Part shown: piece after piece, positions 32,327-33,914 of the stretch
How the letters are laid out: the number at the start of each line of letters is the position of its first letter
Position numbering within the stretch: position 1 is the stretch's first letter
Origin: Escherichia coli
GTDB lineage: Bacteria; Pseudomonadota; Gammaproteobacteria; Enterobacterales; Enterobacteriaceae
Length of the DNA stretch: 64,000 nucleotides
NCBI RefSeq assembly: GCF_003018115.1
Contig: NZ_CP027457.1
Reading direction: 5' to 3' (one strand)
Program-made: the position numbers

Positions 32327-33914
32327 TACGGTTCAGGCACAGGTTTGTAGGCCTGATAAGACGCGTAAGCGTCGCATCAGGCAATGGTGCTCGGATGCCG
32401 GATGCGGCGTGAACGCCTTATCCGGCCTACGAGATGAAGCGATGTTTTGGCCTTACGCGACCTTTTTTGCACGCTCTTCACGGCGTGCCAAATATTCAGC
32501 CACTGTTTCAATCCGTCCCAATTCTTCCTGGGTGCGCATGTTGTTTTCAACTTCCCAAAGATCAACTGCCGCCTGGAGGTTTAGCCAAAAATCGACTGTG
32601 GTATCAAAAACTTTCGCCAGACGGAATGCCATTTCAGTGGTGAGTTTACGATTATTATTGATCAGTGTACTGACGCTATTACGATGAACATGCAGCAACT
32701 CTACTAACTCATTGATTTTCAAAGCGATCTGTTCCGGATATTCATAGAGAAGAATATCTCCGGGTGTCGTCGGTTTTCTTGTTGCCTGTTTCATAGTTTT
32801 TAACTGTTGCTTCCCTGTGAATAGCGATACAAGAACATACTGAATCATACAAACACATTAAACAAGTCCCCAACTCCATTTGCGCCATCCCTCCCCGCGC
32901 GCTAGCATGATATTTCACAAAGGGAGGTCGTATGGATCTGTTGTACCGGGTAAAAACGCTTTGGGCCGCGCTGCGCGGTAATCATTACACCTGGCCTGCC
33001 ATCGATATCACCCTCCCCGGCAATCGCCATTTTCATCTGATTGGCAGTATTCATATGGGTAGCCACGATATGGCTCCCCTGCCCACCCGTTTGCTCAAAA
33101 AGCTCAAAAACGCCGATGCGCTGATCGTCGAGGCGGATGTTTCCACCAGCGATACGCCTTTTGCTAATTTGCCTACTTGCGAGGCGCTGGAAGAGCGCAT
33201 TAGCGAGGAGCAACTCCAAAATCTGCAGCACATTAGCCAGGAGATGGGCATTTCTCCGTCGCTCTTTTCTACTCAACCGCTGTGGCAAATCGCGATGGTT
33301 CTTCAGGCGACGCAGGCACAAAAACTGGGGCTGCGGGCAGAATACGGTATCGATTACCAGCTATTGCAGGCGGCGAAGCAACAACATAAACCCGTGATTG
33401 AACTGGAAGGGGCTGAAAACCAGATTGCCATGTTGCTCCAGCTCCCTGACAAAGGACTGGCGCTGCTGGACGATACGCTGACCCACTGGCATACCAACGC
33501 ACGGTTGCTGCAACAAATGATGAGCTGGTGGCTGAATGCGCCGCCGCAAAATAATGAAATAACGCTGCCCAATACGTTCAGTCAGTCGCTGTACGATGTG
33601 CTGATGCATCAGCGAAATCTCGCCTGGCGGGATAAATTACGCGCCATGCCGCCGGGGCGATATGTGGTCGCGGTCGGTGCACTACACCTGTATGGAGAAG
33701 GGAATTTACCGCAAATGTTGCGCTAAAAAAATGGCCAATATCGCTATTGGCCCGTCAAAGAGGAATTTCATTTTTTTATTATTATGCCGTCACTTTAAGC
33801 GACGGTGTAACTCGATTGTCGCTCAATCTCACCATCCTGCCAATACTCTTAGGCAAGATGACTCTTTTTTTTGGACCGCCATCAGGCGTATGCTTGCTTC
33901 GTTTTTTTGTTTAA

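What the first reader, a model, noticed from the sequence alone, without database searches (positions are those of the whole stretch)
32453..32930. ybaQ encodes a HigA-like HTH protein with no adjacent toxin gene
The product has an XRE/HigA-type helix-turn-helix, but the upstream region up to the divergent ybaP start is only ~85 bp and holds no HigB-like ORF. It looks like an orphan antitoxin-type regulator between the REP array and ybaP.
Basis: partly seen in the sequence, partly recalled or inferred. Interest (0 to 1): 0.2.

Follow-up and report, generated by a model that had tools for sequence, protein, structure and literature searches.

The report
Orphan HigA antitoxin left after toxin loss
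ybaQ here is the surviving antitoxin/repressor half of a higB-ybaQ toxin-antitoxin pair: this E. coli lineage has lost the toxin gene and its promoter, about a quarter of E. coli genomes still have them, and this is already published, so the finding is correct but ordinary.

Summary
Window 32453-32794 (minus strand) encodes the 113-aa YbaQ. It scores 88.9 bits against the HigA model TIGR02607 (cut-off 47.7) and is 95% identical to the solved E. coli YbaQ structure 2EBY. No HigB-like ORF lies beside it or anywhere else in the 64 kb.

One correction: the spacer to ybaP is 137 bp from the conserved start codon.

The orphan state comes from gene loss.
- 1266 of 5426 complete E. coli genomes carry a 100-aa PF05015 HigB toxin gene with a conserved operator/promoter between ybaQ and ybaP.
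- All 14 YbaQ homologues found at other loci have higB directly upstream.
- In this window 68 bp replace that 402-bp segment, and no operator remains.
- A further 593 genomes have also lost most of ybaQ.

This is already known. RASTA-Bacteria (2007) called YbaQ a solitary antitoxin, and Rousset et al. (2020) showed higB-1 upstream of ybaQ in phylogroups B2 and F and its loss elsewhere.

Orphan alleles are generally under purifying selection (dN/dS about 0.09). The window's allele is rare and carries six substitutions, five at residues invariant in toxin-paired homologues.

The parts
32453..32794 (-). ybaQ coding sequence: 113 aa plus stop, a HigA-family XRE helix-turn-helix antitoxin/repressor. 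This is a rare allele with L20P, P22Q, L23I, D24A, A31V and A43T relative to the K-12 and B2 protein.
   Evidence: TIGR02607 88.9 bits; 2EBY E = 2e-66. RefSeq coordinates in F9792, K-12 and B2 strains. Allele comparison.
32795..32848 (-). Probably not translated.
   Evidence: It is open in all orphan alleles examined. It is closed by a TAG in the toxin-bearing allele. It is absent from all homologues, which start at MKQ/MNQ. The 2EBY chain is 113 residues. There is no Shine-Dalgarno sequence before either ATG (sequence).
32803..32870 (-). The 68-bp segment that replaces the 402-bp promoter/operator + higB-1 + spacer of toxin-bearing E. coli. This is the deletion scar.
   Evidence: Alignments of the window and K-12 against a B2-type strain. 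The segment is 95-99% conserved among the orphan alleles K-12, L002, L004, L005 and L009. Local alignment to the B2 segment is not significant.
32837..32870 (-). Probable degenerate relic of the higBA promoter/operator. All GCAC/GTGC half-sites are lost.
   Evidence: MAFFT places it in register with 16 conserved operators. Its PWM score is 2.4 bits against 41-52 bits for real operators, yet it ranks 2nd of 127,934 window positions. GCACNGTGC occurs only once in the window, at 50719, about 18 kb away. The B2 operator has no match within 3 mismatches in the window.
32871..32931 (.). ybaP-proximal intergenic flank, shared by all three locus states (higB+ybaQ, ybaQ alone, neither). The left boundary of the variable segment lies at 32870/32871.
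   Evidence: The ybaQ-less strain GF131 resumes homology at about 32866-32869.

Best explanation
ybaQ is the HigA antitoxin and operator-binding repressor of a chromosomal type II toxin-antitoxin cassette, higB-1/ybaQ, that sits between copA and ybaP in E. coli. In the intact form a sigma-70 promoter is overlaid by a palindromic operator (TGCAC-TTG-CGCAC-A-GTGCA-nnn-GTGCG, followed by TAnnAT). It drives higB (100 aa, a RelE-fold HigB-like toxin) and then ybaQ.

In the lineage of this window a single event replaced the promoter/operator, higB and the higB-ybaQ spacer (402 bp) with 68 bp. That left ybaQ alone, without its ancestral operator and without the well-placed Shine-Dalgarno sequence. 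A second deletion in other strains removed most of ybaQ as well.

Shown here: the three locus states, their shared breakpoint, the HigA and HigB family memberships, and the loss of the operator. Taken from the literature: YbaQ represses higB-1 and is essential where higB-1 is present; it binds DNA in K-12; its C-terminus is a ClpXP/ClpAP degron.

Inferred: in this strain YbaQ has no toxin to neutralise and no own operator to bind. It is at most a labile XRE regulator acting in trans, on other promoters or on incoming higBA cassettes. The window's rare allele, changed at five otherwise invariant residues, is probably drifting towards loss of function.
For: - Family membership: TIGR02607 at 88.9 bits against a cut-off of 47.7; PDB 2EBY and HigA/GraA/VapI-type structures.
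- Toxin at the same locus: a B2-type strain has a 303-bp gene between ybaQ and ybaP that scores 111.6 bits on PF05015. It is present in 1266 of 5426 genomes, always once and always chromosomal. ybaQ is present in 4830 genomes, and 3566 genomes have the orphan configuration.
- Pairing elsewhere: all 14 homologues at other loci have higB directly upstream, one of them frameshifted, and none lies at copA/ybaP.
- Operator: conserved in 16 cassettes and absent here.
- Second-step deletion: the ybaQ-less strain keeps about 54 nt of the ybaQ 3' end, joined at a GTCCC(C)AA microhomology found in the orphan-type allele.
- Literature: Rousset et al., bioRxiv 10.1101/2020.05.25.114553; RASTA-Bacteria, PMC2374986; Gao et al., PMC6237786; degron use, PMC12239797 and PMC2907309.
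- Selection: dN/dS is 0.09 between the orphan alleles K-12 and L005. On the window's branch there are 4 nonsynonymous and 0 synonymous changes since an L004-like allele.
Against: The 68-bp replacement does not align significantly with the B2 segment (p = 0.1 and 0.5), so the event was not a clean deletion. The direction of change is inferred from the cassette's conservation in other genera, not from a rooted phylogeny. If the 34-nt relic is homologous, its ~43% divergence is far above the 1.5-3% of the adjoining coding sequence, and this is unexplained. Purifying selection on most orphan alleles argues that YbaQ still does something, so 'mere remnant' may be wrong for the species as a whole. 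No expression data for this strain were available. The simple promoter scan found no sigma-70 consensus in the spacer.
Confidence: 0.9

Rival explanations
1. Domesticated antitoxin. After toxin loss, YbaQ is kept by selection as an anti-addiction or immunity factor against HigB-1-like toxins carried by plasmids and phage-plasmids, and/or as a transcription factor with new chromosomal targets. Loss of its own operator would free it from autorepression.
For: - Orphan alleles show dN/dS of about 0.09 (K-12 vs L005), and the K-12 protein is identical to the toxin-paired B2 protein.
- The orphan state is present in about 3560 of 5426 genomes.
- HigB at 80% and HigA at 75% identity, with the same operator core, sit on 87-93 kb plasmids that carry phage tail genes. 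These occur in 76 E. coli genomes and in 92 plasmids of the PLSDB collection.
- YbaQ ChIP-exo binding in K-12 is reported (PMC6237786).
- Rousset et al. raise 'other functions'.
Against: No experiment shows cross-neutralisation. 593 genomes lost ybaQ altogether, and one Escherichia representative has a frameshifted copy (L009). The window's own allele is changed at five invariant residues, one of them (A43T) probably in the recognition helix by my reading of the HTH_3 alignment, which fits decay better than maintained function.
Confidence: 0.25
2. YbaQ was always a stand-alone XRE regulator at this locus, and the toxin-bearing arrangement is a later insertion of higB into some strains.
For: The 68-bp segment is not demonstrably derived from the 402-bp one. 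The orphan form is the majority state.
Against: All 14 homologues outside the copA/ybaP locus are higB-higA pairs with the same operator. The B2 promoter/operator matches that conserved cassette architecture. The ybaQ Shine-Dalgarno sequence and spacer are intact only in the paired form. The orphan spacer holds a decayed operator-like site in register.
Confidence: 0.04
3. A cognate toxin exists but was missed: a very small or unconventional ORF in the spacer, the divergent ybaP, or a gene outside the window.
For: A 58-aa ORF (32742-32918, minus) overlaps the spacer. Only 64 kb of the genome could be searched.
Against: The 58-aa ORF has no family hit and spans the scar, so it cannot exist in the paired allele. 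137 bp cannot hold a RelE-fold toxin. ybaP (TraB/GumN family) is never next to the cassette in other genera. higB-1 DNA occurs at most once per E. coli genome and only at this locus.
Confidence: 0.04

Closest known systems
higB-1/ybaQ module of E. coli phylogroups B2 and F (Rousset et al. 2020, bioRxiv 10.1101/2020.05.25.114553)
   Same: Same locus and same antitoxin gene. The K-12 orphan protein is 100% identical to the B2 protein, and the window protein is 94.7% identical. Same flanks, copA and ybaP.
   Different: The window lacks higB-1, the operator/promoter and the Shine-Dalgarno-bearing spacer; 68 bp stand in their place. The window allele has six amino-acid changes.
Solitary antitoxin YbaQ of E. 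coli K-12 (RASTA-Bacteria 2007, PMC2374986; PDB 2EBY)
   Same: Same orphan arrangement, with the same 68-bp segment at 97% identity.
   Different: K-12 has the unaltered protein. The window allele is a rare variant (5 of 4833 genomes at 99% identity or more). The REP array downstream is one unit longer here (416 vs 315 bp).
HigBA of plasmid Rts1 / Proteus vulgaris (PDB 4MCX) and GraTA of Pseudomonas putida (PDB 6F8H and 6F8S; the GraA identity of those entries is from memory)
   Same: Toxin-first gene order. A PF05015 HigB toxin with a TIGR02607 HTH_3 antitoxin that represses its own promoter. Sequence matches of E = 3e-5 and 2e-10.
   Different: These are complete two-gene modules. YbaQ has a longer C-terminal tail ending in a ClpXP-type degron. 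Here there is no toxin and no operator.
Phage-plasmid higBA of E. coli and Salmonella (for example NZ_CP076307.1)
   Same: HigB is 80% identical to HigB-1, HigA is 75% identical to YbaQ, and the operator core TGCACTTGCGCACAGTGCA is identical.
   Different: It is plasmid-borne, intact, and lies among tail and baseplate genes. It is a possible in-trans partner, which is inference only.

Membership tests
HigA family antitoxin (NCBIfam TIGR02607) | Sequence match above the curated equivalog cut-off | tested here: met
   88.9 bits against a cut-off of 47.7, covering 79 of 81 profile positions.
HigA family antitoxin (NCBIfam TIGR02607) | XRE/Cro-type helix-turn-helix domain related to solved HigA structures | tested here: met
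   Pfam HTH_3 at 25.9 bits against a cut-off of 23. PDB: 2EBY (YbaQ itself, E = 2e-66), 3TRB, 6F8S/6F8H, 7CSV/6JPI, 2ICP, 4MCX, with E from 3e-12 to 6e-5.
HigA family antitoxin (NCBIfam TIGR02607) | Encoded immediately downstream of a HigB (PF05015) toxin gene in one operon | tested here: not met
   No HigB ORF in the window. The feature is met by the orthologous gene in 1266 E. coli genomes and by all 14 homologues at other loci.
HigA family antitoxin (NCBIfam TIGR02607) | Binds a palindromic operator in its own promoter (autoregulation) | tested here: not met
   The operator is conserved in 16 paired cassettes. The window spacer has no GCAC/GTGC half-site and a PWM score of 2.4 bits against 41-52 bits. 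Binding itself is not testable with these tools.
HigA family antitoxin (NCBIfam TIGR02607) | Neutralises or represses the cognate toxin (essential when the toxin is present) | not testable with these tools
   Literature only: CRISPRi shows ybaQ essential in 5 of 18 strains (B2/F strains with higB-1), and knockdown overexpresses higB-1 in strain S88.
HigA family antitoxin (NCBIfam TIGR02607) | Proteolytically labile antitoxin | not testable with these tools
   Literature only: the YbaQ C-terminal tag is used as a ClpXP/ClpAP degron. The C-terminal residues RREERAKKVA are unchanged in the window allele.
Complete type II HigBA toxin-antitoxin system | Both toxin and antitoxin genes present and intact | tested here: not met
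   The toxin gene, promoter and spacer are replaced by 68 bp. This is a remnant, not a system.
XRE-family transcription factor | HTH_3 DNA-binding domain; DNA binding in vivo | tested here: inconclusive
   The domain is present. ChIP-exo binding is reported for the K-12 protein, but the site list was not retrievable. The window allele differs at A43T, probably in the recognition helix by my reading of the HTH_3 alignment.

The most novel reading that the evidence does not exclude
Orphan YbaQ, freed from its own operator, is maintained in most E. coli as trans-acting immunity. It would repress the promoter of incoming HigB-1-like cassettes and neutralise their toxin. These cassettes sit on phage-plasmids and conjugative plasmids and share the operator core, with 80% (toxin) and 75% (antitoxin) identity. 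The effect would be to blunt post-segregational killing or to change the fate of the plasmid or phage. The window's rare allele, changed at invariant residues, would then be either an escape/specificity variant or the start of decay.
Probability: 0.15. Interest if true: 0.45.

Novelty: already known. Interest (0 to 1): 0.15.

Why it matters
It matters little beyond housekeeping. YbaQ as a solitary antitoxin was reported in 2007. The explanation (higB-1 kept in B2/F, lost elsewhere, ybaQ essential only where the toxin remains) was published in 2020/21.

The extra details found here make a tidy textbook example of stepwise toxin-antitoxin decay, and they suggest a testable anti-addiction role:
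- the common breakpoint of the three locus states;
- complete loss of a cross-genus conserved operator;
- a second, microhomology-mediated deletion in ybaQ-less strains;
- purifying selection on most orphan alleles but a burst of replacements in this one.

None of this overturns or opens a major question.

Tried and rejected
- Local alignment of the 68-bp scar against the 402-bp B2 segment, compared with shuffles, was not significant. I therefore do not claim a clean deletion or name exact internal breakpoints. An apparent 14/18 match of the scar's 3' part to the higB-ybaQ spacer, seen by eye, failed the same test.
- The simple sigma-70 and terminator scan of 32380-33000 found no promoter in the spacer, so the ybaQ promoter in orphan alleles remains unassigned.
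- The 58-aa ORF at 32742-32918 had no family hits and was rejected as a toxin candidate.
- BLAST of the scar against all fetched loci found no donor sequence.
- The supplement of Gao et al. 2018, which holds the YbaQ motif and site list, is not held. I therefore derived the operator from 16 cassettes instead.
- I checked whether the window's clustered substitutions came from gene conversion by a known homologue. No homologue or plasmid HigA carries P20, Q22, I23, V31 or T43, so that idea was rejected. L004 looks like a stepwise intermediate.
- Structure prediction and fold search were not run, because the protein's own crystal structure (2EBY) and HigA structures were found by sequence.

Full report
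**What is at the coordinates**

The window is E. coli chromosome. The gene order is copA (29532-32036, +), a REP/BIME array (about 32040-32430), ybaQ (minus strand), ybaP (32932-33726, +), ybaK and ushA. The closest complete genome is strain F9792, at 99.8% identity over 561 bp.

The minus-strand ORF that ends at 32453 can be read from the ATG at 32848 (131 aa) or from the ATG at 32794 (113 aa). Four things point to 32794:
- the RefSeq annotations of F9792, K-12 and B2-type strains;
- the 113-residue chain of PDB 2EBY;
- the conserved MKQATRKPT or MNQATRKPT start of every homologue;
- a TAG that closes the extension in toxin-bearing alleles.

The spacer to ybaP is therefore 137 bp.

**Is it HigA-like?**

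Yes, by curated thresholds.
- Pfam HTH_3 scores 25.9 bits against a cut-off of 23.
- NCBIfam TIGR02607 'HigA family addiction module antitoxin' scores 88.9 bits against a cut-off of 47.7.
- Against all PDB sequences the top match is E. coli YbaQ itself (2EBY, E = 2e-66, 107 of 113 residues identical).
- Next come HigA-type antitoxins and relatives: 3TRB, 6F8S/6F8H, 7CSV/6JPI, 3CEC, 2ICP (E. coli CFT073 HigA) and 4MCX (Proteus HigA), with E from 3e-12 to 6e-5.

**Is there really no toxin gene?**

Yes.
- At a 20-aa cut-off, the ORFs touching 32795-32931 are a 58-aa GTG ORF, a 33-aa ORF, an ORF antisense to ybaP, and the ybaQ extension.
- The 58-aa ORF, the only one of these scanned, has no Pfam or NCBIfam hit.
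- tblastn with the cognate toxin, at very permissive settings, found nothing in the spacer. The best hit anywhere in the 64 kb had E = 0.067.
- Downstream of ybaQ there are only REP units and copA.

**Why it is an orphan**

The same megablast that identified the locus showed that some genomes hold about 330 extra bases between ybaQ and ybaP, annotated as a RelE/ParE-family toxin.

In strain FDAARGOS_1287 this is a 303-bp gene 35 bp upstream of ybaQ on the same strand. Its 100-aa product scores 111.6 bits on PF05015, HigB-like toxin.

Counts over 5426 complete E. coli genomes:

| Locus state | Genomes | Source |
|---|---|---|
| higB segment present (once per genome, always chromosomal) | 1266 | |
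| ybaQ present | 4830 | |
| orphan configuration | 3566 (matches 4830 - 1266) | |
| no ybaQ match | 593 | |

Outside this locus the pairing holds in every locus found. A scan of one genome per species found 17 loci.
- The 3 loci at copA/ybaP (Escherichia) are orphans.
- All 14 loci elsewhere have a HigB-1 homologue directly upstream on the same strand. These come from Trabulsiella, Citrobacter, Enterobacter, Kluyvera, Sodalis, Erwinia, E. albertii, a second copy in Escherichia sp. E1V33, and a distant Caldilineaceae genome.
- One of the 14 is apparently frameshifted, and none is near copA or ybaP.

So the cassette is mobile and normally has two genes. The E. coli orphan is a derived state.

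**Anatomy of the loss**

The toxin-bearing and orphan alleles are collinear and 98-100% identical up to ...AAATGGAGTTG on the ybaP side (window 32871 onward). They are collinear again from TAAAAC(T/C)ATG, just before the ybaQ start. Between these points the B2-type allele has 402 bp and the orphan alleles have 68 bp, at window 32803-32870.

The 68 bp are 95-99% conserved among the orphan alleles K-12, F9792, L004, L005 and L009. This points to one event.

Upstream of higB, all 16 paired cassettes examined share a promoter/operator: TGCAC TTG CGCAC A GTGCA nnn GTGCG n TAnnAT. It has a -35 of TTGCGC, a 17-nt spacer, a -10 of TAnnAT, and four (T/C)GCAC half-sites in nested palindromes.

The window has no such site.
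- GCACNGTGC does not occur in the spacer.
- The B2 operator has no match within 3 mismatches anywhere in the window.

The first 34 nt of the scar (32837-32870) align in register with the operator. They score only 2.4 bits on a PWM on which real sites score 41-52 bits, yet this is the second-best of 127,934 positions in the window. I read this as a probable decayed relic.

Direct local alignment of the scar to the B2 segment is not significant against shuffles. If the relic is homologous, its ~43% divergence also sits oddly beside 1.5-3% in the adjoining coding sequence. I leave this unexplained.

The well-placed Shine-Dalgarno sequence of paired alleles (AAGG, 8-10 nt before the ATG) is also missing from the orphan allele.

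**A further step of decay**

The ybaQ-less strain GF131 still carries about 54 nt of the ybaQ 3' end, with point changes and a 12-nt deletion. This remnant is joined to the ybaP-side flank at a GTCCC(C)AA microhomology that exists in the orphan-type allele but not in the B2-type allele. GF131 also has the REP element typical of orphan alleles.

The likely series is: intact higBA, then orphan ybaQ, then ybaQ remnant. In addition, the ybaQ copy of Escherichia sp. E1V33 at this locus is frameshifted after about codon 93.

**What is already published**

- Rousset et al. [quoted passage not shown] The higB-1 promoter contains the YbaQ motif of Gao et al. 2018. ybaQ knockdown overexpresses higB-1. 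higB-1 is absent from most phylogroups, including K-12, and both genes are lost in phylogroup D.
- Gao et al. validated YbaQ as a DNA-binding protein in K-12 by ChIP-exo (PMC6237786). The site list is in a supplement I could not read.
- The YbaQ C-terminus is used as a ClpXP/ClpAP degradation tag (PMC12239797 and PMC2907309). This fits a labile antitoxin.

The finding is therefore already known.

**What it probably does now**

These steps are inference.

The K-12 orphan protein is identical to the toxin-paired B2 protein, with 0 nonsynonymous and 4 synonymous differences.

Two orphan alleles that share the scar, K-12 and L005, differ by 3 nonsynonymous and 9 synonymous changes. That gives dN/dS of about 0.09 (P = 3e-4 against neutrality). 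Orphan ybaQ has therefore generally stayed under purifying selection after toxin loss.

One candidate role is trans-acting immunity. HigB at 80% and HigA at 75% identity, with the same operator core, lie among tail and baseplate genes on 87-93 kb plasmids. These are found in 76 E. coli genomes, and 92 plasmids of the PLSDB collection carry a HigB at 80-90% identity. This has not been tested.

The window's own allele is atypical.
- Only 5 of 4833 genomes are at least 99% identical to it.
- It carries L20P, P22Q, L23I, D24A, A31V and A43T.
- Five of these six positions are invariant in 14 toxin-paired homologues that span 66-83% identity. I place A43 in the HTH recognition helix from the HTH_3 alignment; I did not check this on the 2EBY structure.
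- L004 carries two of the six changes and looks like an intermediate.
- On the branch from an L004-like allele to the window there are 4 nonsynonymous and 0 synonymous changes, and F9792 adds one more.

This pattern fits relaxed constraint in this lineage better than conserved function.

**Verdict**

The mechanism of origin is gene loss from a higB-1/ybaQ cassette. Novelty: already known. Interest is low.

Noticed in passing
window 4464-25241 (minus), with 1126-2301, 2298-4460 and 25350-26705: A single 6925-aa ORF with roughly 300-nt internal periodicity, flanked by 391-aa, 720-aa and 451-aa ORFs. From the layout alone I guess a giant repetitive adhesin with a type I secretion system, next to ybaT/glsA. 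No family search was run on any of these ORFs. From memory, K-12 does not have it at this position.
   Followed up: no
window 32040-32430: A REP/BIME array of about four 101-bp units, giving three Rfam naRNA4 hits at 32148-32427. The copA-ybaQ spacer is 416 bp here, 315 bp in K-12, and only 57 bp with no REP in the higB-bearing strains L001 and L021. Both flanks of ybaQ therefore differ between paired and orphan alleles.
   Followed up: partly
window 33725-33808 (minus): An sroB (ChiX) small RNA at 82.1 bits. It overlaps the last two bases of the ybaP stop codon, as annotated in K-12.
   Followed up: no
window 32633-32736 (ybaQ codons 20-54): All eight changes that separate this ybaQ allele from both K-12 and B2 fall within 104 nt; six are nonsynonymous. 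Five nucleotide changes lie within 14 bp, next to a GATATTC/GAATATC inverted repeat. No donor for gene conversion was found among the homologues. L004 carries four of the eight changes.
   Followed up: partly
L023 (E. coli GF131) 2754-3063: A ybaQ-less strain keeps about 54 nt of the ybaQ 3' end, joined to the ybaP flank at a GTCCC(C)AA microhomology specific to the orphan-type allele. This indicates a second-step deletion.
   Followed up: yes
L022 (plasmid NZ_CP076307.1) 2400-3212: An intact higBA cassette (toxin 80% and antitoxin 75% identical to HigB-1 and YbaQ, same operator core) embedded among phage tail and baseplate genes on 87-93 kb plasmids. It occurs in 76 of 5426 E. coli genomes, always on plasmids.
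   Followed up: partly
L009 (Escherichia sp. E1V33) 4001-4342 and L010: The ybaQ copy at the copA/ybaP locus is frameshifted after about codon 93. The same genome holds a complete second higBA cassette elsewhere.
   Followed up: no
window 47488-47552 (minus): The DnaX programmed-frameshift element, at 96.8 bits. It is expected within dnaX.
   Followed up: no
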